From positions 1 through 64,000 of IMG/VR virus record IMGVR_UViG_3300022932_000015: a DNA stretch of 64,000 bases. One strand, written 5' to 3'. The notes beneath the pieces were generated by a model. It was not told the DNA's origin, did not search any database, and saw only the letters and a program-made list of their open reading frames with translations. This DNA is from a virus. The stretch's first letter is position 1. Each line of letters starts with the position of its first letter. The position numbers were made by a program, and so were the translations under genes. Positions 6,201 through 57,590 of the stretch are shown here, piece by piece.

Positions 6201-9200
6201 ATAGAAGCATACATCCAGATGATTATACAGCTATGGCTATTGCAGCTTATCTTAATGAATCAGGAAATCAATCTACTCAAGGATTAAGTACTGCAATTTA
6301 CACACCTATAGTACCTTCTGAGAAAACTCAAGCATTCCTAAACCAAGGACCTAAATACTTAGGATTCATAATTAATGAAAATGGAGTATTAGAAGAGACT
6401 TCTGATACACAAAGATTTAATAAGATCTTCTGGTTAGAAGCAGATAGAATAAAAAGAGCAAATAAAGATAGAGATTTATATAATTCTGAAACAGAATTGA
6501 TTAATCAAGGTAGATTAGATAAAAGAACTTTTAATCCTAATCCAAATTATCATGGTAAAAATTTTAATGGTAATGCTTACAAATTCAGTATATTAAATTA
6601 TTCTAAGGCTTTAGATCCGAAAGGAGATTTATATAATGCAATATTTAATGAATTCAATAATTCTGAATTGGATGCTTCTCAGTTTTTTGGAGATTCTAGA
6701 AAATTTGTAAAAGAAATAAATGCTGAAATACTTACAATACTAAATAACAAATATAAAAACCAACTAGATAGTCTTATTGATTCTGGTATAATAAAAACTT
6801 CTTCAGAAGGATTGTTAACTTCTAATGTAATAGATCTAGCTTCTTATAATCCTCTTCAGCAAATAAGTGAAGATTCTAAATTAAAAAATCTAGTTGCAGA
6901 ATTCACACTAAACACTAGTTTGTTTAATATAGAATACTCATTGTTAATGAATGGGGATCCTGCTTATTACAAGGACAAGAGTGATTGGGCTAAAAGGTTT
7001 TATCAATCACAAGCTGAAACTAGTAGCTATGACTCTAGTGATTTTGAAGATGGTAGGATACAAATAATGGCTTTCAATGATATTGAAGAGTCTTTAAATA
7101 AAGATTCTTATAATGATATTATTGAAATGACCAAAGATTTGCCTAATAATGCTACTACTAAATCTATTCTAGACTCTGATTATTCAGAATCTAATAGTAT
7201 TAATGTAGCTGATGCCCAGTTTTATGTCAGTGATGATTTATATGCAAAGTTATTGAAATCTCAAGGTAAGACTACGTTTGAAATATCAAAAGCTTTAGCA
7301 ATAGGTAATGGTAGTACTCAGGGTATTAATTCTAGAGATTATCATCAACAATTATCTATTCTTAAAACATTCACTTATGGAGTTCAATGGAATGACAATA
7401 CAGCTAGATATGAACCTATACAGATTAAGTGTGCCGTATTACCACTTACACCATCATTAGTAGCAGACAATCCTTTATTAAAAAAGAGTTTGGATAGGAT
7501 GAAAGCTAATCCAGATGGTCCACAAGCAATGGCATTTAAATCTACTTTCAAAGCTTTACAACCAAGCTATCAAAATATTGAGGATGTAGAGAATTTTGAT
7601 ATAAGCAAGGTTGTTAATTTAGAGGTTGAGAATATGGGTCTTCAAGTTGATAATCCTAACCATGGGTTAGACGGAGAGAATAGTTCAACTAGACAATTAA
7701 AAATGTTATTCTATGGTATGTTAGATAATGAAACTTCTTATAATGGAGTTTTAGGAAAAGATATTAAGTATGAGTTACAACAATTAGAGTCTAAGAATAA
7801 CTTAGAGTCTTTAAATAAATTACTAGATCTTTTTAACAGAAAAGATGAAAGATTACTTAGAATGATTCAAGAAGCAGCTACTAAGAGAAATGCTACTTCA
7901 ATTGTTCAGAAGGTATTTGATATTGATCCAAATACTGGTGATTTTAGATACCCTCTTGATACTCTACCAACTAGACAAACTATAGAATTACTTTCAAGTA
8001 TATTCACTAAGAATGTAGTTTTACAAGAATTTAGAGGTGGTGCTATGGTTCAAGCCTCAGCTTTAGGTTTTCAATTCAAATCTGAATTTAGTAATCTTGA
8101 GGAACAACAAGCATTGGTAGAAGGAACTAAGGAGTTATCTGATATACAAACAAGTTTAAAATGGATAAGGAAGGAAGATGATACTAAAATAGATTATATT
8201 GAAGTAGCTCTTCCATATTACTATTCTGATTTTTTAGATAATAACGGTCAATTTAAAAAAGATATTCCTGAGGAATTATTAAGGATAATTGGTTATAGGA
8301 TTCCTACAGAAGGAGCTCACTCAATGTTACCACTTAAGGTAGTAAAATTCTTACCTAAAGAATATGGTAATGTCATTTTGTTACCTTATGAAATTACCAA
8401 GCAGATGGGAGCTGACTTTGACTTTGATAAGATTTATTTCTTATCAAGAGAATATTATATGAAAGGTAAAGCTTTAGAAGTATATAAATATTCTACAAAC
8501 CCAGAAAATACTGATTTAAGATATGAACAATATATTAACAGTGTATTAAATGAGAACAAGGAAGCTTTAAAAGTTAAGAGAGATGCTAGAGAAGATGCTA
8601 AAGCAGTTAATAAATTAGCTAGAGAAGCTGGAGAAGAGGAATATAAGTATACATTCCAAGATGATATTAATCTATTAGTAGATGAAGGATATATTATTTC
8701 TAGAGAAGATTTTAACAATCTTGGTATTGAAGACCAATTAACTAAAGAAGCTAGGAATAATAGAATCTTAGATTTATATACAGCTGTGTTGAGAGATGTT
8801 AATACATTAAACTCACTTATTGCTCCTTCTGGTCCTGGAGATATCTCATTAGTTTATAATGAGGTAGCTAAATATAAAACCAAAGAAACTCAAGATTATT
8901 TTAGTTTCTTAGGACAATTAGGAATTAAAAAATTATTTGATGACATTATAGGTTTAAAAGGTCAATCAGCACTAAAAGTTACAGGACACTCATTTGTTAG
9001 TTTAGGAAACTTAATAGCAAATGAAAATCCATTTTCTTATAGAGAAGGTGAGAATGTAACTAGTGTTTCTAGCCTGTCTCAGACAGAAAGTAGACAAGGT
9101 AATAAAATAGTTGAAGAATTATCTTCTATGATGGCTGCTATTTTAGATGCCGTTAAAACACCAACAATGCTACCATACTTAAATATATCTTCAAAAACTA

Positions 9201-11080
9201 TTAATATATGGTCTACAATAGTTAGATTTGGTATGGGGACTAAAGTAGCTTCAGAATTCACTGCACAGGAATCTGTAGGTATAATATCAGAAAGATTGAT
9301 GTCTAATGATAAACAAATAAAAGATGGTAATCAATTTAATAACAAAGTAGTAGATGAAGTATTTGATTTATACAAATCTAAATTCTTAGCTATTTATAAT
9401 AATTATGATCCAGGAGACATATCATTACAATTATTTGGTAGATCTTTTAGTGATACTAAAACCTTAAATAATTTATTAAATTCTACCGTAGTTGATTTGG
9501 ATAAATTAACTATTTATACAGGTAAATCTGAAGATGTAGTTAGAAAAGAATTAAAGGATGAGAAGCTATTATTAGATTTTTATCTTACTCAAATGAATGT
9601 AGTTAAATCCTTCCAGAACCTTGAAAGCTTATCTAAGAAATTACAGCAAGTTGACAGTATATTTGGATTGAATAAAGAGGTTGGCCCTACTTTTGAAACA
9701 ACTAATGGTAAACAAGAGGTAATAAGTGAAGTTAATACCTATGAGGCAGATGAGGATGGATCTGGAGTATTTATAGGTATCCAGGATCTTCTTCAGGAAC
9801 CTATTATTAACTCATACATTAATATCAATACTGAATTCTTTAATCAACTAAACGACAGGTTTGGGTTTGCGAATGAATACTATAATTCAATAAAAAGATA
9901 TATTGCAAAAAATCTAAATGTTAAAAATGATAGAGGATTAACAGGATTAAAGCCTAAGGATAGAGACTCAATTAATTCATTTATAACAACATATTTAGAT
10001 GCATATTCAACAATGGCTGATAGCTATAATACTTCATCTGATGAATCAGGCTTCACTGATACTGAGTTAGTAGATGAAATCACCAAATTGAAATCTCCAA
10101 AATTTGATGAAAAATATGAATGGAAGATATTTGGTGGTAAAACTATTAAACAATCTACAAAAAGAATGTTTGAAGAGTCTTCTTTAATGCAACATCTTAA
10201 AACTAGAATTCTAGATAATTCTAATATAAAGGTAATATCTCTAAAAGGTAATAGACTTGAATTGTCTCAAAAAGAAAAGATTATTGCTGATATTAACAAA
10301 CTCTATAAAAACCCAAACAGTAAAGGCTTAATAGAAGGTTTAGTAAATCATAGTTTTAAATATTCAGGCTTTTATACAGGACTAGATAGCTATCATAGTT
10401 TAATTGATCCTGAGATTTTACAAGAAATGGGATTTGTTAAGAATAGACAGATATTAAAAGAAATTATCAATTCAAATAGTGATAATACAATTAAAAGTGA
10501 TATATTTGTAGGTAGATTAATTGATCAACTTATCAGAAATAATGTGAAGCTAACAAAAACATTTGACTTGGATTTAGTAAAAGGAGATTCTTTGTTTATT
10601 AAAACAAGCGATGGATTCAGAGTAAATTATGAAACTACACATCCTAGGAGTACTGAGTTATTTAAATTAGATGATAATGGAGAATATATTTTAAATGAAT
10701 ATATTAGAATATATTTAGATGATAAAGCACAAGGATTTAAAGGTAGTAAATTGTTTAAGCTAGAAGGTAATGTTTATAAAGAAACTAGTAAGTTGGGAAT
10801 ACCAGGACATTTGGTTGAGATAAATCCATTCTTTGATTTACAAAAATCAACCTATCAACCAAATAACTATACTAAGTTTGGTACAGTAGTTAAAGAATTA
10901 ACTCCATCAGAAGAACAAGTAGTAGAAGGAGAGAACAATGAAGCTAATGAAATTAAAGATGAGTATAGTAGCATGACTTCTGATGATATGGATATATTAA
11001 ACCAACAATCATCAGACATAATTAATCCAGATAATATTACTCCTGATGAGGAGTTACCAGATAATATAAAACCTTGTTAA
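272..11080 (+). CDS. Giant virion-packaged RNA polymerase (crAss-like vRNAP) with zincin-like domain
   Basis: 3602 aa; GYRIP...MGADFDFDK catalytic DxDxD motif; HEAFH...EEKLAD zincin motif; crAss-like gene context. Confidence 0.9.
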   Translation: MPVNPKKLSSLSERLGETSTTLTTDLLKNRLAESNTYVGNIAPTYGESQYDESAPVPSVLEGSLEDYRGEVQTRLDKMANAVPRLLSKVGTEIAKTPGYVYALGESGLTDKTLAESLDNAWLNNLDKFDQSVKKQFEIYKPKSVREGNIWDNLTSTSFWTDEGVDGAGFLLSMIAPGAALKATGIAGKLAKLPVLSKIGASNIELGQATLLNTSLESAAEAKGIVDNLKEQFNGLLNPDSPTYNPINPKTGETWTKEEVNNAIGEAGVSTFQMNMGLLLVPNIIMNKNLLGRFNNSKTILDEFKDATGKFVTTNPIVKKSLVKEYSKGIGEAALSEGFLEEAGQTTIENYNKKVALNQTNGEVLTGLASEYLETLASTEGQKAILLGSVLGSLGGATGKSRQLKQDNITRSKLTDLINDNFEGFSVSMDNIIDKDEQGNVIIDPETNSPKINVNEATKVVSNLVKEQQSTNLQDLEALKGNKDLYDYIFNQQLSRFAIPYLQQEGGEEILNQHIDNLSKDLTKANQNNFQENEFKGQIKSQIKDLKSVYTGLVDTINNLPLEQLSNNYELVGKFSDKLLNTAYQESSKQLFLTKKIKELSNQLLSIRATAQENVSQFNIEAEKLTNRIESLNQSLEISKENYNAIFDPEQQKAAFEDFSVQEEENEPEVKQEVPIPETSEPVEETPTYTQNSELDNEVKQAKTKEDLDSIFDKYFDETNGEELENILTSRNKVIDEQNSHLVGVDQVNSVIESLNKEDHEAELRDIKSNLESIKNLTSYDNYDTSFKQTLEDTLGRVNNVLDDVVSEDDNIVNEASNNTISLIIQNQDIESTNPLGLQDSIQNVKSFSTKVYNTVMMKLFESKYSKGKGLQFVKNNEGEAVKTSTTISMVVNNPNIVKKGDVISFEITTLEGDQNLDNEANIAISKEIINRDTDDLYSVADKEFGKYYRESIAIRHKDSNEIIGFVALPHALSEVSEDTIESKQARLDIRNQLIAQRKRIIDLLNNNEVVETTIFDKGPGKLLLKSDKDGIPIMSSIISRNQDLIDGRDIYVVDKGYDLSGNIEGFGIPNKEDFVKASDRLAINELFSKLSGRTFSDTSGNNKGRVFKAVKNSNNTWSLIPVYATSIGAEKAEKIIKKLKTFVSQVGGVYTPNLKAIYSELGKDVYITNTDKRGVLKIDNFKINGKQWGALFNNPSFEKELLDNISKAKNNIITQLLNTDNGIKDILETNAYQEDGEYFVQPYIEFTGIQTTNVVETQEIIEEKPINSTEKLSNDKLDLPEDVLGLDILDEEVFTSKSTKGKLNRKNITEFLETNLPGITLADQDLVSQVKPYVKDAVGMFYRSTIYLFKDSTNNTAYHEAFHGVFRNILSVDERSAVIHQAKAYYSAPSIEELNNLSYTITPETRAKLTEKQLTDALKQLYYEEKLADSFADYTELVQEKTLGDKIKDFFRKLFRIFNLFKRYNEDQITSLFDSINTGKYSERSKTTQFDRAITSELLNPAYKKPDNIPISEFLDRSKSIEDVFYYRLNQQLELGLTMEKIRIGDIFNSIRQDYRSKAIEFNKVGEKYKSAVSTNVYNNWDSYVEQVIANLQKRKIKIKVKDNNEIESLDTNGIPDTTNNVENMDIENVEVGINKSYGQEMTAISGIRSAGDKLKLFLSALPILEDNRIKTDAYGFEQFYDYERIYYQLEIYLLEKPTFEEQYDEIKYLATYKPEMYQVLKALDTLKGESGEQIKKQFRTNFYKQQLKFKLVLFEKSRADGKYSFKIVDSNRKDIKRSITSDWTNNLIDPSRTKENLVRFENSEYKLDQDKIKKLVTEFENTALTEDYAFNTLYRLGIEFKREDFSKVYKSNEGIISTNIKNYLNSLASKEVTRKGREAFEWFVNQQVVFNQSLFTQSFNNTENSIVYSIQNNSFSSRLVNKLTKGNNSGFINDLKRDPIYKYLSMLEAPYIAKSLRTFAIDGLKDGVGENIGKKYRSIHPDDYTAMAIAAYLNESGNQSTQGLSTAIYTPIVPSEKTQAFLNQGPKYLGFIINENGVLEETSDTQRFNKIFWLEADRIKRANKDRDLYNSETELINQGRLDKRTFNPNPNYHGKNFNGNAYKFSILNYSKALDPKGDLYNAIFNEFNNSELDASQFFGDSRKFVKEINAEILTILNNKYKNQLDSLIDSGIIKTSSEGLLTSNVIDLASYNPLQQISEDSKLKNLVAEFTLNTSLFNIEYSLLMNGDPAYYKDKSDWAKRFYQSQAETSSYDSSDFEDGRIQIMAFNDIEESLNKDSYNDIIEMTKDLPNNATTKSILDSDYSESNSINVADAQFYVSDDLYAKLLKSQGKTTFEISKALAIGNGSTQGINSRDYHQQLSILKTFTYGVQWNDNTARYEPIQIKCAVLPLTPSLVADNPLLKKSLDRMKANPDGPQAMAFKSTFKALQPSYQNIEDVENFDISKVVNLEVENMGLQVDNPNHGLDGENSSTRQLKMLFYGMLDNETSYNGVLGKDIKYELQQLESKNNLESLNKLLDLFNRKDERLLRMIQEAATKRNATSIVQKVFDIDPNTGDFRYPLDTLPTRQTIELLSSIFTKNVVLQEFRGGAMVQASALGFQFKSEFSNLEEQQALVEGTKELSDIQTSLKWIRKEDDTKIDYIEVALPYYYSDFLDNNGQFKKDIPEELLRIIGYRIPTEGAHSMLPLKVVKFLPKEYGNVILLPYEITKQMGADFDFDKIYFLSREYYMKGKALEVYKYSTNPENTDLRYEQYINSVLNENKEALKVKRDAREDAKAVNKLAREAGEEEYKYTFQDDINLLVDEGYIISREDFNNLGIEDQLTKEARNNRILDLYTAVLRDVNTLNSLIAPSGPGDISLVYNEVAKYKTKETQDYFSFLGQLGIKKLFDDIIGLKGQSALKVTGHSFVSLGNLIANENPFSYREGENVTSVSSLSQTESRQGNKIVEELSSMMAAILDAVKTPTMLPYLNISSKTINIWSTIVRFGMGTKVASEFTAQESVGIISERLMSNDKQIKDGNQFNNKVVDEVFDLYKSKFLAIYNNYDPGDISLQLFGRSFSDTKTLNNLLNSTVVDLDKLTIYTGKSEDVVRKELKDEKLLLDFYLTQMNVVKSFQNLESLSKKLQQVDSIFGLNKEVGPTFETTNGKQEVISEVNTYEADEDGSGVFIGIQDLLQEPIINSYININTEFFNQLNDRFGFANEYYNSIKRYIAKNLNVKNDRGLTGLKPKDRDSINSFITTYLDAYSTMADSYNTSSDESGFTDTELVDEITKLKSPKFDEKYEWKIFGGKTIKQSTKRMFEESSLMQHLKTRILDNSNIKVISLKGNRLELSQKEKIIADINKLYKNPNSKGLIEGLVNHSFKYSGFYTGLDSYHSLIDPEILQEMGFVKNRQILKEIINSNSDNTIKSDIFVGRLIDQLIRNNVKLTKTFDLDLVKGDSLFIKTSDGFRVNYETTHPRSTELFKLDDNGEYILNEYIRIYLDDKAQGFKGSKLFKLEGNVYKETSKLGIPGHLVEINPFFDLQKSTYQPNNYTKFGTVVKELTPSEEQVVEGENNEANEIKDEYSSMTSDDMDILNQQSSDIINPDNITPDEELPDNIKPC

Positions 11081-11081
11081 T

Positions 11082-14000
11082 ATGAGTTGTAGACAACATT
11101 TCACTAATCAAATAATTCTAGATATAAAGGATACTATAGGAGTTGGTAGAACCTCAGCTAAAGAATTGAAGTCATTAAAGATTCTATTACCAGTAGGTGG
11201 AATTAATAATGCAAATGAAAAGCTAGCTTCTAAAGCAAATACTTACAAATGGGGCCAGTCTATTCAGAAAACTATTAATAGTAAATACAATTCTAAAGTA
11301 TACGGTAATCTTATAGATTTAGATAATAACTCTAATCCCTATGGAACTATACTTAATATTACTATACCATCAAAGCTTATAGATGGTTATGAAAAGAAGT
11401 ATAATCAAACTGGATTAGCTCAAATTTCTAATACTGAAAATCCTGTTAATGAAAAGTTAAACGAAAGATTATCTTCAATCATAGAGGGGTTAGGAGTAAA
11501 AGTCGAATTCTTGGATAACTTTGATAAGTCAGACATAATAGGGTTATGGAATCCTATTAATAACCTAATACAAGTATCTAAAGACAAACAAGATGAGTCT
11601 ACACTTTCTGAGGAGGTGAGCCATGCTATAATTGATGGTCTTCCAAATGATCCTGCAGTTATAAACTTGATAAAAAATATAAATAAGCTAGGTTATAAGA
11701 CTATTTTAGCAGAGGAGAGTAGTGAATATGAAGAGTTATACAACAATGATATAAATCTCTTAAATAAAGAAGCTGCAGGTAAATTATTAAGTATAGCCCT
11801 AAGAGACAACTTTGAAAGTAATTCACCAGAAGTCTCTAAATTTTATAAGATATGTAAGATGATCTTTAACAAGATTAAACTCTTATTTAGATCAATATCT
11901 TCTGAAACTGTTGATTCTATACAAAAAGAGGTAGATGAAGTAACTAATAAAATTGCAAAATCGTTTTTATCTGATGAAATTAAAGAGCTAGACTTTAGCT
12001 ATGAAACTGAAAAAGCTATTTTATTTCAAGTAAAAGGAGAACCAAAATTACAAAAGAAAGATAAATATATTCAACAGATAGTTGAGTTGAAAAGAAGTAT
12101 TGCTAGGAACGAAAAGTCTCTAAACAATATTGATAAAAAATCAGTAGCTTTTGCTCAACTAGAAGAGAAAATTAATTTAATGAAAATTGCCTTACAGGAT
12201 TATTTATTAAATAGTAAAGAAGATTCATTAAGACAAACTGCATTATATCAACTTCAATTGATAAAAGGATTAATAGATGCATATGATTCAGGTCATAAAC
12301 CATCTACTAATGATATAAAAATAGCCTATGATACCTTACAATCTTTAAAGGATATTGTAGGTCTAGAGACTTACGTATTCAAAGCTACAGAAGATCCTGA
12401 ATTAGATGCTAAAAAGTTACTGGATTCTGTATCAGATATTCAAAGAGAATATGCTGTAAAAATAATTCAAGAACACTCTAATGAAGAAGTAAAGCCTACT
12501 GCAGAAGATATAGACGAACAAACTACAGACATAAATAAATTTACAATGGGTTTTGGTACGTTGACCAATCTGACGAATTACATTGCCAGAACTATAGGTA
12601 GTTTAATTAAAGCAGCTCAAATTAGAGTTTCTAAGAAACAAGGAGCTTTATATGAGGAGATTAGAAAAAATGTAGATAATCTTAAAAAGTGGGGTAAAAG
12701 AAACAATGTCCAAGATAAGGACTTGTACAACATTTTTCTACAAAATAATAGAGGAACTACAGTTTTAGTTAGAGAATATACTGAAGAATTTTATGAAGAT
12801 CTATATAAAGGATTTAAAAATAATAATTGGAAAACTTTAGCAACTAGAAATTCAGATGGTACTTATATACCATTGAACTTAAAAAAATATGAAAACCCTA
12901 ACTATAAAAAGATACAAGGAGATAAGGATTTAAAAGCATTCTATGAATTCTATCAGAAGACTATGTCTGAATCAATTGATAGACTTCCAACACATCTCTT
13001 AAAAGGTATGGGAGGAAGTTATAAAAATGGATTTGTAGCTAATATAGGTAGAGATGATTTACAACATTTACTAAATGCTTCAACATTCTTTGGTAAAGCT
13101 AAACAGTTATTCTCTAATATCACAAACATAAGAGTAAGAGAAGTATATAATGACGATTTTATTAGAGATGAGATACTTTCTAAAGATGAAATTCCTGTAA
13201 AATATCTAAAGAAGATAGCTTCTGAGGATAAGTCTAATGACTTAGGAGAAGCTTTATATAAATTCGGAGCCTTTACAATTAGTCATGAAGAGTTAACAGA
13301 AGTATTACCACAAGCAAGATTGCTTGAGAATCAATTATTAGCTAAAAAAAGTCTTGTTAAAGCTTCTAATCCTACTGAAACTGTAAATACAGAAGACAGT
13401 AACTTAGCCAAAATAGTTAAGAAGACTATTGAGATGCAGTTACTTGGTAAAACAAAAGAAGATCAAGGTAAGATCACTATTGGAGATATATATGATGAGA
13501 GTGGGGAAGTAATAGGTAAGAAGCATATTGCTGCTTCTAATATTGCTGATTTTGGATTGAAATACAACAGTTTACTTAGGATTGGATTTAACCCATTCAA
13601 TGCTATAACTAACGTTGTTATTGGTGAGGTTAGTACAGCAATGGAAGCTATAGGAGGTAGATATTTCAATAAGAAAGATCTAACTGATGCTACAGGTATA
13701 TTTTTCAAAGAAATAAACAACAAAGAATCTAAGTTAAAGAAATTATTAGAAGTATTTAATCCACTTCAAGAGTTAGAAGATTATGATTATGCTAAAAATG
13801 TTAGTATAAAATCTAATATTGAAGAGAAGATAAAAAGCTTTCTATATACTCCTCAGAAAACAGGAGAGTTATTTTTACAGAGCAGATCTATGATTGCGAT
13901 GCTAAAACACAAGAAATTTAAAGTTGGAGAAGCAGAAGTCAGTTTTTGGGATATATTAGATGATAACGGTGAGTTAAAAAAAGAATATGAATCCTTAATG

Positions 14001-14720
14001 ACAAAGGAAGAATTAGATAATCTTATTACTTCATTTTCAGCTAAAATTCAAGGAGTTAATTCAAAGATGCATGGTAGGTATTCTCAGAGAGATGCAGCTA
14101 TTATTAATCAGAATATTCTTTGGAGAATGGCTTTCCAATTTAAAAAATGGATTCCAGCAGCAATAGAGACTAGATTTGGAAGTAAACAATTTGATAATAT
14201 AACTCAGGATGTTCAAGAAGGAAGATGGAATACAATGGTTAAACTTCTGTTAAACTATAAAGATACATATTCAAGGTTGCAGAGAGGTGAATTAGAAGAA
14301 TATGAAATTTATAATTTCAAAAAGAGTAGCACTGAATTAGTAATTCTTATTGCAACAATAGTTTTATACTATGGATTAAAATGGGATGATGATGAAGAAA
14401 GAAAGAATGATCCTTGGTATAAATTTACTATGGATCAGTTAGATAAAGTTTCTGGAGATTTATTATTCTTATCAAATCCTAAAAATGTAACTAAATTAAC
14501 TAAGTCTCCATTTGCTATTACTAAACTAGCAGATCAAATATTAGACTTAGGATCTTCTTTACCAACTTTATTAGGTTATGGAGAAATGGATTATCAATCT
14601 GGTCCTAATAAAGGACATAACAAAGTTGTAACAAACATAATTGGATTAACTCCTGGTGTAAAACCATTTGGAGAAGTTGCTAAAATGTTTAATGAACAAA
14701 AATATAGAGAATATCACTAA
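11082..14720 (+). CDS. Large virion/ejection protein
   Basis: 1212 aa directly after vRNAP; helical-looking; degenerate zincin-like EEVSH. Confidence 0.6.
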   Translation: MSCRQHFTNQIILDIKDTIGVGRTSAKELKSLKILLPVGGINNANEKLASKANTYKWGQSIQKTINSKYNSKVYGNLIDLDNNSNPYGTILNITIPSKLIDGYEKKYNQTGLAQISNTENPVNEKLNERLSSIIEGLGVKVEFLDNFDKSDIIGLWNPINNLIQVSKDKQDESTLSEEVSHAIIDGLPNDPAVINLIKNINKLGYKTILAEESSEYEELYNNDINLLNKEAAGKLLSIALRDNFESNSPEVSKFYKICKMIFNKIKLLFRSISSETVDSIQKEVDEVTNKIAKSFLSDEIKELDFSYETEKAILFQVKGEPKLQKKDKYIQQIVELKRSIARNEKSLNNIDKKSVAFAQLEEKINLMKIALQDYLLNSKEDSLRQTALYQLQLIKGLIDAYDSGHKPSTNDIKIAYDTLQSLKDIVGLETYVFKATEDPELDAKKLLDSVSDIQREYAVKIIQEHSNEEVKPTAEDIDEQTTDINKFTMGFGTLTNLTNYIARTIGSLIKAAQIRVSKKQGALYEEIRKNVDNLKKWGKRNNVQDKDLYNIFLQNNRGTTVLVREYTEEFYEDLYKGFKNNNWKTLATRNSDGTYIPLNLKKYENPNYKKIQGDKDLKAFYEFYQKTMSESIDRLPTHLLKGMGGSYKNGFVANIGRDDLQHLLNASTFFGKAKQLFSNITNIRVREVYNDDFIRDEILSKDEIPVKYLKKIASEDKSNDLGEALYKFGAFTISHEELTEVLPQARLLENQLLAKKSLVKASNPTETVNTEDSNLAKIVKKTIEMQLLGKTKEDQGKITIGDIYDESGEVIGKKHIAASNIADFGLKYNSLLRIGFNPFNAITNVVIGEVSTAMEAIGGRYFNKKDLTDATGIFFKEINNKESKLKKLLEVFNPLQELEDYDYAKNVSIKSNIEEKIKSFLYTPQKTGELFLQSRSMIAMLKHKKFKVGEAEVSFWDILDDNGELKKEYESLMTKEELDNLITSFSAKIQGVNSKMHGRYSQRDAAIINQNILWRMAFQFKKWIPAAIETRFGSKQFDNITQDVQEGRWNTMVKLLLNYKDTYSRLQRGELEEYEIYNFKKSSTELVILIATIVLYYGLKWDDDEERKNDPWYKFTMDQLDKVSGDLLFLSNPKNVTKLTKSPFAITKLADQILDLGSSLPTLLGYGEMDYQSGPNKGHNKVVTNIIGLTPGVKPFGEVAKMFNEQKYREYH

Positions 14721-50453: not shown

Positions 50454-50466
50454 TTGTTTTAATTTG

Positions 50467-50855
50467 TGGAGCTGGACAGGTACGATCTGTCGTGTTCCAT
50501 AATTCATTATTAATTTTCTACAAGTTTAGCATATCTTTTTCTCCTAATGCAGGATATTTGATTCTTAATCAAAAAAGCAACACATTGGCTAGTTATAGTC
50601 TTCCTATGTGTGAAGTGGTTGACTTTCCAATATTAGGCTGCTAACTCTAATTCTGCAATTGGGGCAGATGTCAATTTAATGACTTTTGCTGAAGCGCTTT
50701 TTACAACTGCAAGAACATCAGCGATGCCTCCTACTTCGTTGGTTATTACAACATTGTCCGTTAGAACTTGAAACCATAGATTAAAGTGATAGATAACATC
50801 TCACTACTTGCTTATCAATAAATTATTACAGAGTCTATAGCCAACTCTCAGCCCC
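50467..50855 (-). ncRNA. ssrA: tmRNA with 41-aa tag ending ELAA
   Basis: 5' GGGGCTG pairs with 3' CAGCTCC-A (G3:U70); T-arm GACAG/CTGTC; UAACG-GAC resume context; tag frame 50758-50633. Confidence 0.9.
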
Positions 50856-50964: not shown

Positions 50965-51027
50965 ATAAGTAACTTGACTATTAGAATTGTAGTTGTTGTA
51001 ATTCGAGTTGTTGAACACTAAACTACT
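50965..51027 (-). repeat. DGR template repeat TR2
   Basis: 63 nt ungapped versus VR2; 15 mismatches, all at TR adenines; AAC/AAT-rich. Confidence 0.95.
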
Positions 51028-51040
51028 AGAAGTTATAATA

Positions 51041-51490
51041 TTAACGTTGAATGATTTTGTATAAATGAGCATAATTCTTACCTACAAAATCAGAGGTTTT
51101 CTGATCTTTGAAATAAGCAACCTGACCAATAGAACAGTAGCTGCTGTAATCCGAGCTGAGGAACACCAAACCACCTTTTTTATCATTCTCATGATAAGGA
51201 TACCATTTCTGTTGGTCATGATCAGTCCAATCTAAGATCCAATCTTCATTAAAGAATTTTTGTACTTGTTTTAATTGAGCAACTGCTACATGAAATTCTA
51301 TCTCTTCTGGTGTGAATAAATTAGAAAAGTGCTCTGATTTTACTTCATATTCTTTCAAAGCTCTACATATACTTGGATAATCAGCTCCTATTTTGAATAA
51401 ATCTGCGGGAGCATTTACTACCTTTTCTAGTTCCATTATTGTTGCTTTTAGCTCATTGATTTTTTCCTGAGCTTTCTTTTTATCTGTCAT
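51041..51490 (-). CDS. DGR target protein 2
   Basis: Contains VR2 (GGLVFLSSDYSSYCSIGQVAY); paralog of target 1. Confidence 0.92.
   Translation of the reverse strand: MTDKKKAQEKINELKATIMELEKVVNAPADLFKIGADYPSICRALKEYEVKSEHFSNLFTPEEIEFHVAVAQLKQVQKFFNEDWILDWTDHDQQKWYPYHENDKKGGLVFLSSDYSSYCSIGQVAYFKDQKTSDFVGKNYAHLYKIIQR
51085..51110. other. Hairpin just 3' of VR2 (candidate DGR target-recognition hairpin)
   Basis: CAAA-ATCAGA-GGTTT-TCTGAT-C-TTTG. Confidence 0.5.
51113..51175 (-). repeat. DGR variable repeat VR2
   Basis: Matches TR2 except at 15 adenine positions. Confidence 0.95.
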
Positions 51491-52434
51491 AAGTATTTAT
51501 TTTTTAAGTTTATACTATTACAATGAGATAACCATCCATTGTAGCTTGCTATTGATTTTTTATTATTATTTTTCCTGATCATTCTTATAAATCTTAGTTT
51601 TATACTCTTTCTCAGTAAAATATGTGTATGATAAGATTTATATCCAAGGAAATCTATTCCTCTAGATTTTACAGGAAATATTTGATAATTTGATTTTATT
51701 TTAAGTTTCAAATTTACATTTAGATATTGCTCTATCAAATGTAATATTCTGTGTAATTCTTGTTTATTGCTTCCCAATATAACTAAATCATCACAATATC
51801 TAAAATAGTATTTTACTTTTAAAGTTTCTTTAATCCAATGATCAAAATAGCTTAAATAAAAATTAGCAAAATATTGAGATAGATAATTTCCAATAGGTTG
51901 TCCTTTACAACTATCTATTATATTACTCAATAAACTCAGTAGATTTTTATCTTTAAATTTCTTGAGTAATAATTCTTTTAAAATATCGTTATCAATGTTT
52001 GGGTAGAACTTTTTGATATCTAATTTTAAGCAGTATTGAGTCTCCTCTTTGTTTTTTAATGCTTTATTTAGAGAATTTAGACCTTTGTGTATACCTCTAT
52101 TCTTTATACAGTTATAAGTATCTTTAGTAAATGTTGATACAAATATAGGTTCTAAAATATTCATTATAGCATGATGTACTATTCTATCTGGGTAATAGGG
52201 TAACTTATATATTTCCCTTTCTTTTGGATCAAAAATTGTGAATATTTTGTATTCTGACGTGTTATAGTTATTGTTTAATAGTATTTGATTTAAATTTAAT
52301 ATATTATTATCATAGTTCTTGTCAAATTCTATTACGTCTTTATTTTTAGATTTACCAATTCTAGCCTTTTTATCGGCTAGTATTAAATTATCTATATCAC
52401 AAATTTTATTATATAAGTTACCTATTCGTTTCAT
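51487..52434 (-). CDS. DGR reverse transcriptase
   Basis: KEREI, DRIVHHA, KLDIKKFY, GQPIGNYLSQ (DGR-type SQ), YFRYCDD, DFLGY; 315 aa with no maturase or endonuclease domain. Confidence 0.95.
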   Translation of the reverse strand: MKRIGNLYNKICDIDNLILADKKARIGKSKNKDVIEFDKNYDNNILNLNQILLNNNYNTSEYKIFTIFDPKEREIYKLPYYPDRIVHHAIMNILEPIFVSTFTKDTYNCIKNRGIHKGLNSLNKALKNKEETQYCLKLDIKKFYPNIDNDILKELLLKKFKDKNLLSLLSNIIDSCKGQPIGNYLSQYFANFYLSYFDHWIKETLKVKYYFRYCDDLVILGSNKQELHRILHLIEQYLNVNLKLKIKSNYQIFPVKSRGIDFLGYKSYHTHILLRKSIKLRFIRMIRKNNNKKSIASYNGWLSHCNSINLKNKYL

Positions 52435-52532
52435 CTTATACTTCTTAAGTCTCTTTCAATAGTTTACTAAAGACTCTTTAAGTTTGTTATCTTTTACCCA
52501 GTGGTATGGTTAATACTAATTAGTCTAAAATA
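52435..52532 (-). ncRNA. DGR spacer RNA 1 (Sp1)
   Basis: Between TR1 and the RT start; hairpins at 52495-52506 and 52448-52475. Confidence 0.75.
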
Positions 52533-52591
52533 TAATAAGTAGAGTAGTTAGAATTGACATTATAGTTGTTCACGTTATTCAGTACCTAACT
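52533..52591 (-). repeat. DGR template repeat TR1
   Basis: 59 nt ungapped versus VR1; 15 mismatches, all at TR adenines. Confidence 0.95.
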
Positions 52592-52604
52592 AAAACATTT
52601 AGTA

Positions 52605-52958
52605 TTAACCTAAATATGAATTGTATAATTTTATAAGCTCATTTGCCATCACTCTTGCTGTATCTTCTTTCTTATAATAGTAAGAAGCAGAGAAGTGAGA
52701 AGTGACACAATAGCTGTACACGCTACCCAGCACCCAACCATCTTCTTTAGAAAATCTAAAATATGGTAGATACTTATATTCATTACCATTGTTAAAGTCT
52801 GGTTCCCATATTTTGTCATCATTATCTAGATAGTTTTTTGCTTTGATTATCGTCTCTAAACTGTAAGATATCCAATCTTTCTTCCTTCTAAATTGATGTT
52901 CTACATATCTTTGATGACCAACTTTAAATAATATTTTCTCAGCTTCTTCTAAACTCAT
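52605..52958 (-). CDS. DGR target protein 1
   Basis: Contains VR1 (GWVLGSVYSYCVTSHFSAS). Confidence 0.92.
   Translation of the reverse strand: MSLEEAEKILFKVGHQRYVEHQFRRKKDWISYSLETIIKAKNYLDNDDKIWEPDFNNGNEYKYLPYFRFSKEDGWVLGSVYSYCVTSHFSASYYYKKEDTARVMANELIKLYNSYLG
52681..52739 (-). repeat. DGR variable repeat VR1
   Basis: Matches TR1 except at 15 adenine positions. Confidence 0.95.
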
Positions 52959-52963
52959 AATTA

Positions 52964-53359
52964 TTATTTTTCAGATTTTTCCTCTTTACTTAATTCTTTG
53001 ATTTGTTTATCTAAGAATGATGAGACTAACTCACTTGTTTGAGAAGGTATTTTACATATGCTTGTATCCTTTGATATCCAATCAATAGTCTTGCCCCCAG
53101 CTATAATTAATATTGCTTCATTTTTAGATGGTGTGAGAGTTATGCCTATTATTGCAATACCAATTAGAATAAATGCCCATATTATTTTCCATCTGTTCTT
53201 TCTAGTGTATATCTCATTATCATCTCCCTCTATATGATTTATAAACTTTATAAAGTAGAATAGTACCATCATTGCTATCCCTATAGTTAATATAGCATTG
53301 AACATTCCATTTAAAGAATCTAGCCTTGTTAGCCAATATAATTTCCAATATATATTCAT
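52964..53359 (-). CDS. Membrane protein
   Basis: YWLTRLD followed by two TM helices and TPS. Confidence 0.7.
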   Translation of the reverse strand: MNIYWKLYWLTRLDSLNGMFNAILTIGIAMMVLFYFIKFINHIEGDDNEIYTRKNRWKIIWAFILIGIAIIGITLTPSKNEAILIIAGGKTIDWISKDTSICKIPSQTSELVSSFLDKQIKELSKEEKSEK

Positions 53360-53383
53360 ATTTTTATGTTTTAGTTGTTTTTA

Positions 53384-53572
53384 TTAATTTTCATTGTACA
53401 TTGATATATACTCTATTATTAAGGCTATCATTATCAGTGGTAATCCTAATACGCATATTGTTAACATTAACATCACGGAGTAAAATACATTAAAGTCTTC
53501 TAGTATATCGAAGACAAATAGTCCTAGTATAAAGAAATTTAATGCAAAGTAAATTGTTATCATTATTTCCAT
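53384..53572 (-). CDS. Small membrane protein
   Basis: Two hydrophobic segments. Confidence 0.55.
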   Translation of the reverse strand: MEIMITIYFALNFFILGLFVFDILEDFNVFYSVMLMLTICVLGLPLIMIALIIEYISMYNEN

Positions 53573-53689
53573 ATTTCATTTTTAAATTGTTATTAATGGT
53601 TATTATAATAAACCCCTCTAGGAAACTGGAATAACCTAAAGGGTTTATTATACTGAAAGTAAGCTTAGATAAGCTTTACTTCTTTGTTG

Positions 53690-53760
53690 ATGCTCTACTA
53701 GGACTCGAACCTAGATTAATTCCCGAGAGGAATTCTCCTATCCAGTTAGAGGATAGAGCA
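53690..53760 (-). tRNA. Atypical tRNA / pseudo-tRNA (Glu-CUC reading possible; anticodon arm shortened)
   Basis: TGCTCTA/TAGAGCA acceptor, CTAGG-TTCGAGT-CCTAG T-arm, D-loop with GG. Confidence 0.7.
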
Positions 53761-54429: not shown

Positions 54430-54828
54430 TTATAGTAAATACTTTGTAAAAGTCTGGAGAGTATTATCATACTTTATTCCTCCTGCTATTACATTTCCTG
54501 GTTCGCTTAATTTTATACCTGATATTATATACCATTTATCTATTGGCGCATTCGTATCAATATATATTGTTTTAGATCTGTTTTTATAGCTAACTGTTAC
54601 TTCATATACAGAATTATACTCTAATACTGCTATGAAATTGTTGTTAATCATCATATTAGATGAACTATTATTAGTTTTGTTTACTATTAATAATTCAAAC
54701 TCTTCTGAGTCTATAAATTTATTATCCACTTTTATACTTAAGTCAAGTTTTATAGTTTGTCCTATACTATTGAAGGATAATGCTACTAATGTGATTATTA
54801 GCATTAATGAAGTCATCATTTTTTTCAT
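54430..54828 (-). CDS. Secreted protein with Sec signal peptide
   Basis: MKK + hydrophobic core + G/Q cleavage-like site. Confidence 0.65.
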   Translation of the reverse strand: MKKMMTSLMLIITLVALSFNSIGQTIKLDLSIKVDNKFIDSEEFELLIVNKTNNSSSNMMINNNFIAVLEYNSVYEVTVSYKNRSKTIYIDTNAPIDKWYIISGIKLSEPGNVIAGGIKYDNTLQTFTKYLL

Positions 54829-55057
54829 TGGTTATTGTTTGTTTATGAGTTGTTAATTGAAGATTGCTAGGTGAATGTACATGTTTTGTGCTAATGTATG
54901 CTGTATCCATGACATTGAGTACCTTTCACTTGGTGTTCTGTCTAATGCGTTCATGGGTTTATTGTTTAATTGTTGTTTGAAAACCTATTATATACCCATA
55001 AACATTAAAGAATTTCATTTCTAATGATTTACAATGGAATATATAATAGGCACTATT

Positions 55058-55390
55058 TTAGTTTAGATATACTTTCCTAGAAGATTTTATTGTTCTATCT
55101 AGTGTATATACATTGTTGTTTTCATATTTCTTTAAAGCCGTAATTAGATTATGATTGAATCTTAATACATCTCTTCTTAGATGTTCTTCTTTGGCTTCAT
55201 TCTCTAATCTTTTAGTTCTTGTAAATTCTACGTACTCTAATCTGTTTAGAGTTTGGCTAATTTCTTCACCTTTGTAGTTCTTTGCTTTTACTACTTCGTA
55301 TTGCACATCTTTGTTTTTCTCTGATCCATGTACTGGAACTATTGATGTACCTAGAAATATTGTTGTTGCTATGAATTTATGTTTTCTCAT
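55058..55390 (-). CDS. Hypothetical protein
   Basis: ORF between two hairpins. Confidence 0.6.
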   Translation of the reverse strand: MRKHKFIATTIFLGTSIVPVHGSEKNKDVQYEVVKAKNYKGEEISQTLNRLEYVEFTRTKRLENEAKEEHLRRDVLRFNHNLITALKKYENNNVYTLDRTIKSSRKVYLN

Positions 55391-56177
55391 ATTATTTATA
55401 TTAGTTATGTATTTGAAAAGTAGCTCTAACTACTTGTTGATTAGACTTTCGTTAGAGCTTGAAACTTTTATAAATCTTTAGTTTGGACTTACTGGTGCAA
55501 AGAATTATAGAACCACCTCACGTATAGTATTCTTGTCTAATTATCACATCAGATTCAAACCTAACTATCTTCTTTATAGTCCCATTGGAATATTTGATCC
55601 AACTACTAATATGCTTGTCATTTCTCCTGTTTGAGGATGTTGTACAATTTCATTGTATTTTACTACATTGTTTAAGGCTTTCATAAGACATTGTTTTAGA
55701 TTGTTTATATTTGTTGAATTGTATTGTTTATCTCTGGTTTTTACACTGATACCTCATTTGGCCTGGTCGCTGTTTTTATTGATCGAGTATTAGTGTCATC
55801 AAATCTACTTAACCCCTTATATGTTTGAATATTTGCAGTAGTTGAAAGTTAAGTTGCTACCTTTGAAGTAGCGAGATATTGATTATTATTTAATAAGTGT
55901 GCTGAATACTTGTTTTTACACTATTAACGACTTCTTATTAAATTTTTTTTAATGTTATTACCTGTCCGATTTCTAAGCGGAATAAAAAGATATAACCAAT
56001 CACCTCCATGTTAAGATTTAATACCGTCAAACGGAACACTTTGGAGCATTTTAAATTGAAATTATATCTATTATCTTTACACAGAACAACGACTACTTAG
56101 ATTAGTCTATAAGATACAAGATTTTATTCTTATACAATTTATATTTATTACTGTTCTGCTTCAAGCAGGTAAATGTG

Positions 56178-56483
56178 TTATATATTATCTCTTAGTATTA
56201 AGAGTTCAATATCACAATATTTTGAGCATTCACCTACAAATCTTTTGTTATCATATATTTTAATAGTATCTATGTGAATATCTAATTGATAATCTCTTAG
56301 ATGTACAAAATCTTTATGATGACTGAAATTTACTCTGAATGTATCATCTTGTAATTTACAATTGAATACATCTGATGAATCAGAATATCTAAATTCTTCT
56401 GGAAGATCTAATATTGGTTGTTTTGGTTGTTGTTTACAACTAACTAGTATTGTAATTAGGAGTAATGTTAATATTGTTTTCAT
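56178..56483 (-). CDS. Putative lipoprotein
   Basis: MKT + hydrophobic core + LVSC lipobox. Confidence 0.65.
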   Translation of the reverse strand: MKTILTLLLITILVSCKQQPKQPILDLPEEFRYSDSSDVFNCKLQDDTFRVNFSHHKDFVHLRDYQLDIHIDTIKIYDNKRFVGECSKYCDIELLILRDNI

Positions 56484-57143
56484 AGTTTTATAGTATTATT
56501 GATTAATAATTCATTTATGATTTGATCAAGGACAGTATAATAGAGTTATTATAGTAGATATTATTGCTTTAATTGTTAGTAATATTCTTGTTTTTTTATC
56601 AAACGATTCATAGAGCTCTATTAGTTTTATTCTATTTGGCCAATCTGTCATTATTGAAAATAGAAACATTATTGTTAATGTTATCATCTTATTTGATTTA
56701 GCTATATTATTATTAGTGAATTGTAATATTGTGATTGTTGTTAAAGTGATGATTTGCTGGGTGTGAGTACAGTGCCAATCAATTGAACACTTAAATTACC
56801 AATCAAATCACTCTAAACTAATTAATTAGACTAATAGTCTCCTACCAATTTAGTAGGAGCTATTAATAGTGTTAAGATAAATAGATTATAGCATCACCTT
56901 CAAGTTTAATCCAAAGACTGTGTAATTCTTTTAATGGAAATAGAGTATATTTAGGGTCAGATGGTGTTTCATCATTAGTAAATCCTATTAAATAATGTCT
57001 ATCTCCAGCTTCTGTGTGTAATAAGATTGCATATTTCATGGTAGTTTATGTTTAATAGTTAATAATAGGTTAGTTACAAAATCCCCAAGCCAGTATCACA
57101 AAAGTTACTCTGGTCATGGGGATTTTTTCTGCAATCGTTCACT

Positions 57144-57590
57144 TTACAGCTTTTTTAAGTGTATTAGTTTACCACTTTTAGTCTTTATTATAGTCTCATT
57201 ATTACTTGCAGAGTAATTAAAAGACAGATATAGCTCTTTTCTATATACACTATCAATTATATCTAGTGATGTATTTACATACTCTAGTTTATATTTTAAT
57301 GTATCTTTTATTGAGCTATATGGATTGTGGTAAAATCCTTTGAATTTGTATTCAAATTTTGCGTCAGCCATTATTGTATCTGTTACTCCAGCTGGATTAT
57401 ATATAAATTGATATATCCCCTCAAGGCAAGCTCCATACTCTCCACATTTTGAGATTGGTTTCTCTATTTGTGGTGTATTTGGTTCTTCAATAGGCTTAAT
57501 TTCTTTTTTCTTGCAGCTAATCATTGTACATAACATCATTAATATTATACAGCTTATGATTAGGTTTAGTATTAACAATAGTTTTTTCAT
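57144..57590 (-). CDS. Putative lipoprotein
   Basis: MKK + hydrophobic core + ISC-KKKE. Confidence 0.65.
   Translation of the reverse strand: MKKLLLILNLIISCIILMMLCTMISCKKKEIKPIEEPNTPQIEKPISKCGEYGACLEGIYQFIYNPAGVTDTIMADAKFEYKFKGFYHNPYSSIKDTLKYKLEYVNTSLDIIDSVYRKELYLSFNYSASNNETIIKTKSGKLIHLKKL

What the first reader, a model, noticed from the sequence alone, without database searches (positions are those of the whole stretch)
51041..52958. DGR targets are small paralogous non-tail proteins in the early/replication arm
Seen: the targets (117 and 149 aa) share W..D....KY/W.PY....G.V-[VR]-Y.K...T......LY, have no signal peptide, carry an internal VR followed by roughly 23-25 constant residues, and lie among non-structural genes far from the virion module. 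Known: well-studied phage DGR targets are receptor-binding proteins with C-terminal CLec or Ig-like domains. Inference: these are intracellular hypervariable binders, for example anti-defence or host-takeover factors.
Basis: partly seen in the sequence, partly recalled or inferred. Interest (0 to 1): 0.7.

Follow-up and report, generated by a model that had tools for sequence, protein, structure and literature searches.

The report
Small non-tail phage DGR targets
A 94-kb crAss-like phage of Bacteroidota uses a mutation-generating retroelement only to rewrite two small soluble proteins encoded among its early and replication genes; this target family was already catalogued as "non-structural/unknown", and nobody knows what it does.

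Summary
T117 (52605-52958, minus strand) and T149 (51041-51490, minus strand) flank a DGR reverse transcriptase. Each has its own template repeat 148 nt downstream of its variable repeat. In both pairs 15 template adenines differ and almost nothing else does (Fisher P 2.5e-9 and 1.4e-7). A second natural copy of each protein differs only at adenine-templated codons, so both targets are actively diversified. These are the only variable repeats in the 94-kb genome.

Both proteins belong to a very large family of 120-165 aa phage proteins: phrog_11581, with 5,345 clusters at 50% identity. The family is mostly acidic and has no signal peptide or membrane segment. In Bacteroidota phages it sits next to recombination, replication and DNA-modification genes. 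Two confident AlphaFold models match no solved fold. Only the 27-residue variable block resembles classical lectin-type tail targets.

The class is not new. It fits Roux et al. 2021's cluster PC_00007 ("Phage_other") and the second, non-structural target of Quimbyvirus/LoVEphage (Benler et al. 2021). Earlier agents of this scan reported the same family many times on other DNA.

The "intracellular binder" reading is supported by context only. The anti-defence function is untested. Verdict: a new member of a known but uncharacterised kind.

The parts
52605..52958 (-). T117, DGR target 1 (117 aa), short form of the small-target family
   Evidence: ORF. Family HMM E 8.4e-12. AlphaFold pLDDT 87, pTM 0.81. 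A natural variant, P0001, differs only at 8 VR codons.
52684..52740 (-). VR1, variable repeat (codons 74-92 of T117)
   Evidence: 57-nt match to TR1 with 15 mismatches, all at template adenines. It is the only match in the 94-kb genome.
52536..52592 (-). TR1, template repeat 1, non-coding, 148 nt downstream of VR1
   Evidence: It carries 7 AAY codons in the VR frame and an in-frame TAG.
52428..52511 (-). RNA element between TR1 and the RT start, resembling Rfam RT-17 RNA
   Evidence: RF03020, 35.6 bits, E 3.4e-4, below the gathering score of 40.4. The stretch after TR2 resembles it in sequence.
51487..52434 (-). DGR reverse transcriptase (315 aa)
   Evidence: RVT_1 E 5.9e-18 and phrog_1423 E 2.4e-117. 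The translation contains IGNYLSQ and YCDD. It is 60-72% identical to hundreds of RTs in Bacteroidota phages.
51041..51490 (-). T149, DGR target 2 (149 aa), long form of the family; its start overlaps the RT stop
   Evidence: ORF. phrog_11581 E 4.7e-6. Family HMM E 2.7e-21. A natural variant, P0002, differs only at 6 VR codons.
51114..51176 (-). VR2, variable repeat (codons 106-126 of T149)
   Evidence: 63-nt match to TR2 with 15 adenine mismatches and 1 other. It is the only match in the genome.
50966..51028 (-). TR2, template repeat 2, non-coding, 148 nt downstream of VR2

Best explanation
T117 and T149 are two diverged members of a very large family of small, soluble, mostly acidic phage proteins. 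That family is phrog_11581, and it fits Roux 2021's cluster PC_00007 'Phage_other' and the second target of Quimbyvirus/LoVEphage. They are the only targets of the DGR in this 94-kb crAss-like Bacteroidota phage.

Shown: the RT copies each of two template RNAs, misreading adenines. The resulting cDNA overwrites 19-21 codons in the gene just upstream of that template. My own estimate of the repertoire is about 10^11 to 10^13 protein variants per target, and both loci vary in nature.

Inferred: the proteins are made in the cytoplasm of the infected cell together with early and replication genes, and they are not part of the virion. They present a variable loop patch that lies after a conserved core and before a C-terminal pair of helices. 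With this patch they probably bind a polymorphic intracellular partner. The most plausible partner is a host defence or take-over target, which would make a phage population pre-armed with many binder variants. The partner and the effect are unknown.
For: DGR mechanics and activity:
- Adenine-only TR/VR differences.
- Natural variants confined to adenine-templated codons.
- No other variable repeat in this genome, nor in five 86-100% complete relatives.

Family membership:
- HMM built without self.
- 5,345 clusters at 50% identity, almost all 120-165 aa, with no fused Pfam domain.
- hhalign probability 99.6% to the LoVEphage member.

Soluble and non-secreted: median pI 5.3, and 0 of 108 members have a hydrophobic segment.

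Non-structural context:
- This phage's replication arm, set against its TerL/portal/MCP arm.
- L003 sits between exonuclease/SSB and a replication initiator.
- L007 sits beside an RNA ligase and a polynucleotide kinase.
- The phage Versailles member sits between SbcC/NinB and the replisome organiser.
- The LoVEphage member sits amid four methyltransferases and a Lar-like anti-restriction gene, and is a verified remote variable repeat.
- Neighbours at 25 prophage loci include no structural family.

Literature: Roux 2021 classes the cluster as non-structural/unknown, with 1.6% predicted structural. Benler 2021 reads the Quimbyvirus second target as a phage-host conflict gene.
Against: - There are no expression, localisation or binding data.
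- Gene position is weak evidence for location in the cell.
- The hydropathy test is crude.
- The immediate upstream neighbours in the window (53-58 kb) are small membrane, secreted and lipoprotein ORFs of unknown function, not replication genes.
- No DGR has yet been tied to a known anti-defence protein.
- In Roseburia phage Shimadzu, an analogous second target showed no dominant allele under selection in mice.
- The phage Versailles homologue is annotated 'tail protein' by its depositors.
Confidence: 0.6

Rival explanations
1. The small proteins are unrecognised virion components. For example, they could be adaptors or decorations that dock on tail fibres and take part in host recognition, like classical DGR targets.
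For: - Every experimentally understood phage DGR target is a receptor-binding protein.
- The 27-residue variable block is homologous to that of classical ~435-aa targets of sister DGRs (hhalign probability 92%).
- The phage Versailles homologue is annotated 'tail protein'.
- Roux et al. caution that unknown clusters may be uncharacterised structural proteins.
Against: - The family sits consistently in recombination, replication or modification modules in several unrelated phage types.
- In LoVEphage the same DGR also has a separate target next to the RT.
- Family members are small acidic proteins with no recognisable attachment domain.
- Only 1.6% of the cluster was predicted structural.
Confidence: 0.15
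2. The proteins are variable sensors or decoys aimed at competing phages or mobile elements. That would make them a superinfection-exclusion or defence function carried by the phage, not a counter-defence against the host.
For: - Most family members sit in temperate phages of Bacteroidota.
- DGRs have been proposed as parts of prokaryotic immunity (PMC10053308).
- The window's upstream neighbours are small envelope-directed proteins, which could act in exclusion.
Against: - The cassette lies in the lytic early, recombination and replication operon, which is normally silent in lysogens.
- The window's phage is crAss-like, and no lysogeny genes turned up among the ORFs scanned; I did not search for them specifically.
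- No effector domain is fused or conserved next to the targets.
Confidence: 0.12
3. The proteins serve the retroelement itself. They would be a substitute for the Avd accessory factor, which is missing here, and their diversification would be incidental.
For: - The cassette has no obvious Avd.
- The targets occupy positions flanking TR and RT.
- In canonical relatives a basic 97-aa ORF follows the RT in 18 of 25 loci. In the window, T149 sits in that position instead.
Against: - Family members are mostly acidic (median pI 5.3), whereas Avd is basic (Wu 2018).
- There is no similarity to the 97-aa ORF (hhalign probability 0.2%).
- Remote members in LoVEphage and Versailles lie 15-44 kb from the RT.
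- AAY-rich templates are the signature of a designed binding-site library.
Confidence: 0.05
4. The variable block is a portable, self-propagating cassette that has been grafted onto a dispensable small gene. Under this reading the diversity has little adaptive value.
For: - Only the variable block is shared with classical targets.
- Shimadzu VR2 alleles showed no dominant variant in mice.
Against: - The family has 5,345 clusters with a conserved scaffold and near-invariant residues outside the variable block.
- Whole DGRs are dedicated to these targets alone.
- Open reading frames are maintained across more than 100 loci.
Confidence: 0.05

Closest known systems
DGR target cluster PC_00007 ('Phage_other') of Roux et al. 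2021, Nat Commun 12:3076 (PMC8144416)
   Same: - Viral targets with Bacteroidota (FCB) hosts.
- The variable repeat sits at about 0.72-0.77 of the protein length.
- Two adjacent target genes lie next to the RT.
- Classed as non-structural/unknown.
- Their supplementary target set contains tandem small proteins with the family's core motifs.
   Different: - I matched the cluster by its listed properties and by motif search, not by a sequence-by-sequence check.
- The window's cassette has two templates, one per target. Nearly all relatives examined here have a single template.
- The window's cassette sits in a crAss-like phage.
Second, non-structural DGR target of Quimbyvirus/LoVEphage (Benler et al. 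2021, Microbiome 9:78, PMC8008677; LoVEphage OY725593 gene AUSP0022_00089)
   Same: - Same protein family (hhalign probability 99.6%, E 2e-24).
- Adenine-mutagenised variable repeat.
- Lies among non-structural, conflict-related genes.
- The authors proposed a role in phage-host conflict.
   Different: - There it is a remote second target, 15 kb from the RT on the other strand, of a DGR that also has a target next to the RT.
- It is 194 aa long, with an insertion.
- It was described as carrying a C-type lectin domain, which my fold searches do not support for this family.
- In the window the small proteins are the only targets.
Bordetella phage BPP-1 Mtd and other C-type-lectin-fold DGR variable proteins
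   Same: - Adenine-specific mutagenic retrohoming.
- AAY-rich template.
- A conserved scaffold presenting variable residues.
   Different: - Mtd is a tail-fibre receptor-binding protein with the variable repeat at the extreme C-terminus.
- Here there is no lectin-fold match, 23-25 residues follow the variable repeat, the proteins are cytoplasmic-type and small, and the cassette is in the replication arm.
DGRs of crAss-like phages (LMMB, cr52_1, Zeta group; PMC7290462, PMC12386605)
   Same: - The closest RTs among GenBank phages (up to 58.7% identity).
- The same phage order by TerL similarity.
- Phages Lera and ct1yV3 also have several TR-VR pairs.
   Different: Their cassettes lie in the structural block. 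They target 400-aa-plus tail or tail-fibre proteins with C-terminal lectin-like domains.
Roseburia phage Shimadzu orf43 (VR2 target; Cornuault et al., bioRxiv 10.1101/575076)
   Same: It is an actively diversified second DGR target of unknown function outside the tail genes. It is the only case I found with experimental allele tracking.
   Different: The host is a Firmicute, and homology to this family was not tested here. It is a remote second target, not the sole target.

Membership tests
Diversity-generating retroelement (DGR) | Reverse transcriptase of the DGR type (GxxxSQ motif and YxDD catalytic motif) | tested here: met
   RVT_1 and phrog_1423 hits. IGNYLSQ and YCDD are visible in the translation.
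Diversity-generating retroelement (DGR) | A non-coding template repeat and a coding variable repeat that differ almost only at template adenines | tested here: met
   15 of 21 adenines versus 0 of 36 other bases, and 15 of 24 versus 1 of 39. Fisher P is 2.5e-9 and 1.4e-7.
Diversity-generating retroelement (DGR) | Natural copies vary only at adenine-templated codons (activity) | tested here: met
   P0001 and P0002 differ from T117 and T149 at 8 and 6 residues. All are at AAY or TAY template codons.
Diversity-generating retroelement (DGR) | Avd-type accessory gene (present in about 74% of DGRs, so not obligatory) | tested here: inconclusive
   There is no ORF between the cassette parts. The window has no homologue of the basic 97-aa ORF that follows the RT in relatives. 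I ran no dedicated Avd profile search.
Small non-structural DGR target family (phrog_11581; Roux PC_00007) | Sequence match to the family profile | tested here: met
   HMM built without self: T149 E 2.7e-21, T117 E 8.4e-12. T149 matches phrog_11581 at E 4.7e-6.
Small non-structural DGR target family (phrog_11581; Roux PC_00007) | 120-165 aa, with an internal variable repeat followed by about 20-29 constant residues | tested here: met
   The window proteins have 25 and 23 residues after the variable repeat. The family shows the same pattern in about 130 targets.
Small non-structural DGR target family (phrog_11581; Roux PC_00007) | No signal peptide or membrane segment | tested here: met
   Hydropathy scan of the window proteins and 108 family members, with positive controls. 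The method is crude.
Small non-structural DGR target family (phrog_11581; Roux PC_00007) | Located in a recombination, replication or modification module and not among virion genes | tested here: met
C-type-lectin-fold DGR variable proteins (Mtd, TvpA, FGE-sulfatase type) | C-type lectin fold around the variable repeat | tested here: inconclusive
   Two models (pLDDT 87 and 89) gave no lectin hit. Foldseek against the PDB gave E>1, and the best VIA-align Z scores were 4.0 and 3.7, to unrelated chains. Only the 27-residue variable block aligns with classical targets.
C-type-lectin-fold DGR variable proteins (Mtd, TvpA, FGE-sulfatase type) | Variable repeat at the extreme C-terminus of a multi-domain protein | tested here: not met
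   23-25 residues follow the variable repeat, and these are single-domain proteins. Compare the classical L078 target, with 6 residues after the variable repeat.
C-type-lectin-fold DGR variable proteins (Mtd, TvpA, FGE-sulfatase type) | Pfam match to FGE-sulfatase, DUF1566 or Mtd-type domains | tested here: not met
   No Pfam family for T117, T149 or any of 108 members at E<=0.001.
Known phage anti-defence proteins | Homology to a characterised anti-defence family, or a demonstrated inhibition | not tested
   No anti-defence library was available, and the PADLOC library was not run. Pfam, PHROGs and PDB searches give no functional name. A 2026 survey reports no DGR targeting known anti-defence proteins.

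The most novel reading that the evidence does not exclude
The family is a third kind of DGR scaffold, neither C-type lectin nor Ig-like. Phages would use it as a library of intracellular binders, in effect phage 'intrabodies', that neutralise polymorphic host defence proteins. Whole DGRs, including this two-template one, would be dedicated to that task.
Probability: 0.3. Interest if true: 0.85.

Novelty: new member of a known kind. Interest (0 to 1): 0.45.

Why it matters
DGR biology rests almost entirely on receptor-binding proteins. A family of more than 5,000 sequence clusters of small soluble proteins, served by dedicated DGRs inside phage replication modules, implies a second major use of targeted hypermutation: one that acts inside the infected cell. 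This locus is a clean case for testing that idea. The phage is crAss-like, the small proteins are its only targets, each has its own template, and both are demonstrably active. If the partner proves to be a host defence protein, it would reveal a new counter-defence strategy. It would also provide a compact natural scaffold for binder libraries.

Tried and rejected
- Sequence searches gave no function. Pfam gave no hit for the two proteins, 108 family members, or 10 longer or fused members. The PDB sequence profile search returned only chance coiled-coil hits. The ESM Atlas returned only hypothetical viral clusters.
- Fold searches gave nothing usable. Foldseek against the PDB and VIA-align wide, run on two confident models, found nothing above Z 4.0. 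BFVD returned only uncharacterised phage proteins. This does not prove the fold is new.
- The word-index homologue search found only near-identical copies. The exhaustive profile search was needed to see the family.
- I rejected the idea that the small family is a truncated lectin domain. The profile comparison with classical ~435-aa targets aligns only the 27-residue variable block. That block is templated by a related TR, so the resemblance says nothing about the scaffold.
- I rejected the idea that the 97-aa ORF after the RT in relatives is related to the targets.
- A search for further variable repeats in this genome, and in five near-complete relatives, found none.
- Megablast of 20 kb of the window against GenBank phages found nothing. 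T149 gave no tblastn match there either.
I used the RT instead.
- PHROGs gave no function for the window's neighbours at 53-62 kb.
Full report
**What is at the coordinates.**

On the minus strand, the stretch 50.9-53.0 kb reads as follows:
- T117, a 117-aa ORF (52605-52958);
- a non-coding template repeat, TR1 (52536-52592);
- a 315-aa reverse transcriptase (51487-52434);
- T149, a 149-aa ORF whose start overlaps the RT stop (51041-51490);
- a second template repeat, TR2 (50966-51028).

The RT matches RVT_1 and phrog_1423 (E 2.4e-117), and its translation carries IGNYLSQ and YCDD.

VR1 (52684-52740, T117 codons 74-92) differs from TR1 at 15 of 21 template adenines and at none of 36 other bases. 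VR2 (51114-51176, T149 codons 106-126) differs from TR2 at 15 of 24 adenines and at 1 of 39 other bases. Fisher P values are 2.5e-9 and 1.4e-7. In both cassettes the variable repeat lies exactly 148 nt upstream of its template. Each template carries seven AAY codons in the VR frame, plus TAY, AGT and ACT codons. From those codons I estimate about 10^11 to 10^13 protein variants per target.

- The two proteins are paralogues.
- Twenty-five and 23 residues follow the variable repeats.
- Neither protein has a hydrophobic N-terminus or a membrane-like segment, unlike the lipoprotein ORFs a few kb upstream, which I used as controls.
- Both loci are active. A word-index search found one other natural copy of each protein, on a single 6,123-bp contig. 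P0001 differs from T117 at 8 residues and P0002 differs from T149 at 6. Every difference falls on an adenine-containing template codon, and the rest of each protein is identical.

**The phage.**

- The window is part of a single 94,209-bp viral contig with 29.7% G+C.
- Its plus-strand arm carries TerL (63139-65229), portal, major head protein and virion proteins. That arm runs on, through the contig end, into the 3,602-aa and 1,212-aa ORFs at 0.3-14.7 kb.
- Its minus-strand arm (58 to 15 kb) carries DNA polymerase A, helicases, primase, DNA and RNA ligases, and nicotinamide phosphoribosyltransferase.
- TerL is about 35% identical to Crassvirales terminases. This is therefore a divergent crAss-like phage of Bacteroidota.
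- The DGR lies near the start of the minus-strand arm. "Far from the virion module" needs a qualifier. The packaging arm begins only 6-10 kb away, but on the other strand and in a divergent unit. Candidate tail genes are at least 18 kb away.
- The immediate upstream neighbours (53-58 kb) are small membrane, secreted or lipoprotein ORFs of unknown function, not replication genes.
- Neither template has any other match in the genome, so the DGR serves these two proteins only.

**The protein family.**

The RT is 60-72% identical to hundreds of RTs in IMG/VR contigs. It is similarly close to RTs in genomes of Flavobacterium, Chryseobacterium, Elizabethkingia, Pedobacter, Sphingobacterium, Dyadobacter, Chitinophagaceae, Prolixibacteraceae and Ignavibacteria.

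In nearly all of these loci, two or sometimes three tandem ORFs of 120-165 aa sit directly upstream of a single TR and the RT. Each ORF has an adenine-mutagenised repeat followed by 20-29 residues. The closest relatives (L001, L007; 70-71% RT identity) share the window's layout of target-TR-RT-target-TR. L080 (66% RT identity) shows the same downstream target-TR, but its upstream flank is cut by the contig end.

Both window proteins match a family HMM built without them. An exhaustive profile search found 5,345 clusters at 50% identity with E<=0.001. Almost all are 120-165 aa, and a few are tandem fusions. The family is phrog_11581, "unknown function". It has no Pfam model and no fused domain. 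Median pI is 5.3, and no member has a hydrophobic segment.

**Fold.**

AlphaFold models of T117 (pLDDT 87, pTM 0.81) and of a canonical long form (pLDDT 89, pTM 0.78) show the same plan:
- N-terminal helices;
- a conserved core around the NEGW-PDW-KYYPWF motifs;
- a low-confidence variable loop;
- two C-terminal helices.

Neither model matches a solved structure. Foldseek gave E>1, and the best VIA-align Z scores were 4.0 and 3.7, to unrelated chains. BFVD returns only uncharacterised phage proteins, several from crAss-like viruses. This does not prove a new fold.

The family does share the variable block with classical targets. Sister DGRs (RT 57-61% identical) target ~435-aa proteins that end in a "GSRLCF" motif. 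A profile-profile comparison aligns just 27 columns, exactly the templated block (probability 92%, E 6.5e-7). Because that block is copied from a related template, the resemblance says nothing about the scaffold. It may explain why relatives have been annotated "C-type lectin" or "tail protein".

**Genomic context across the family.**

- In L003, the cassette lies between an exonuclease plus SSB and a DnaD-like replication initiator.
- In L007, it lies beside a metallophosphoesterase, an RNA ligase and a polynucleotide kinase.
- In cultured Bacteroides phage Versailles, a 193-aa member sits between SbcC-like, recombination and NinB genes and the replisome organiser. It is 44 kb from the RT.
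- In LoVEphage, a 194-aa member (hhalign probability 99.6%) lies among four DNA methyltransferases, a Lar-like restriction-alleviation gene and a Holliday-junction resolvase. I verified it as a remote variable repeat, with 10 adenine mismatches and 1 other. Its RT is split over three frames.
- I scanned the three nearest genes on each side of the cassette in 25 named Bacteroidota genomes. The recurring families were a 97-aa ORF after the RT (phrog_19665, 18 of 25 loci; pI 9.2 in L003), DNA methyltransferases, primase, helicase, HNH endonucleases, a MazG-like pyrophosphatase and a nucleoside deoxyribosyltransferase. No structural family appeared among the 25 most frequent families listed.
- In five 86-100% complete relatives, the template matches only itself and its one or two adjacent variable repeats.

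**What is already known.**

- Roux et al. 2021 grouped DGR targets into clusters. Their supplement classes PC_00007 as "Phage_other", non-structural/unknown, with only 1.6% of members predicted structural. The cluster is viral with FCB-group hosts, has variable repeats at 0.72-0.77 of protein length, and shows adjacent primary and secondary targets next to the RT. Tandem small proteins with this family's motifs are in their target file. They warn that such clusters could still be unknown structural proteins.
- Benler et al. 2021 described a second Quimbyvirus DGR target, distal to the structural genes and nested among a nuclease, methyltransferases and a tRNA ligase. They proposed a role in phage-host conflict. 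The LoVEphage locus matches that description, including the three-frame RT.
- Published crAss-like DGRs target tail proteins in the structural block. Several TR-VR pairs have also been reported there.
- In Roseburia phage Shimadzu, a second target of unknown function is diversified but showed no dominant allele in mice.
- A 2026 cohort study found no DGR aimed at a known anti-defence protein.
- Earlier agents of this scan reported the same family on many other genomes and reached the same two references. I had reached those references independently before reading their notes.

**Mechanism and verdict.**

Shown:
- a working DGR with two templates;
- two small paralogous targets that are its only targets;
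- membership in a huge soluble-protein family found in non-structural modules.

Inferred:
- the proteins act inside the infected cell as variable binders;
- a host defence or take-over factor is the most plausible partner, given the methyltransferase, anti-restriction, tRNA-repair and recombination neighbourhoods.

Four alternatives remain open: a virion role, a superinfection-exclusion role, an accessory role for the retroelement, or a nearly neutral cassette. The locus is a new member of a catalogued but functionally unknown class. Two features set it apart: one template per target, and a crAss-like phage whose DGR ignores its tail genes.

Noticed in passing
window 50464-50855 (-): A full-length but sub-threshold match to Rfam tmRNA (RF00023, 28.7 bits against a gathering score of 47, E 7.2e-9) lies directly downstream of TR2's spacer. 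ARAGORN did not call a tmRNA there.
   Followed up: partly
window 52428-52511 (-): The stretch between TR1 and the RT start resembles Rfam RT-17 RNA (RF03020, 35.6 bits against a gathering score of 40.4). The stretch after TR2 is similar in sequence. It is probably the structured spacer RNA of this DGR lineage.
   Followed up: partly
L003:4947-5243 and the equivalent position in 18 of 25 Bacteroidota prophage loci: A conserved 97-aa ORF (phrog_19665, unknown function; pI 9.2 in L003) overlaps the end of the RT in canonical cassettes. It is a candidate accessory protein. The window has no homologue, and T149 occupies that position.
   Followed up: partly
window 53689-53760 (-): A tRNA-Glu (CTC) gene lies just upstream of the DGR cassette, inside the early arm.
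   Followed up: no
window 54430-57590 (-): A run of four small ORFs with signal-peptide or lipoprotein-like N-termini (132, 110, 101 and 148 aa), followed by two small membrane ORFs at 52964-53572, opens the early arm. None has a functional PHROG match; only two weak or unknown-function matches turned up (phrog_5522, phrog_3878).
   Followed up: partly
window 272-14720 (+): Two giant ORFs of 3,602 and 1,212 aa end the structural arm. The 1,212-aa protein has no PHROG match. I did not analyse the 3,602-aa protein.
   Followed up: no
L081:4495-5736 (phage cr52_1, NC_055888): The annotated Mtd-like tail target of this crAss-like phage contains two in-frame stop codons under table 11. That is consistent with stop-codon reassignment in that phage.
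   Followed up: no
L007:6432-8270: An RNA ligase gene next to the DGR cassette appears to be split by a homing endonuclease gene. N- and C-terminal ligase fragments flank a phrog_314 ORF.
   Followed up: no
L003, L006, L008 (G001-G003; G004 and G005 differ at one position): A 42-nt core of the template repeat is identical in three different proviruses and differs at one position in two more, although their variable repeats all differ. This points to strong conservation of the template itself.
   Followed up: partly
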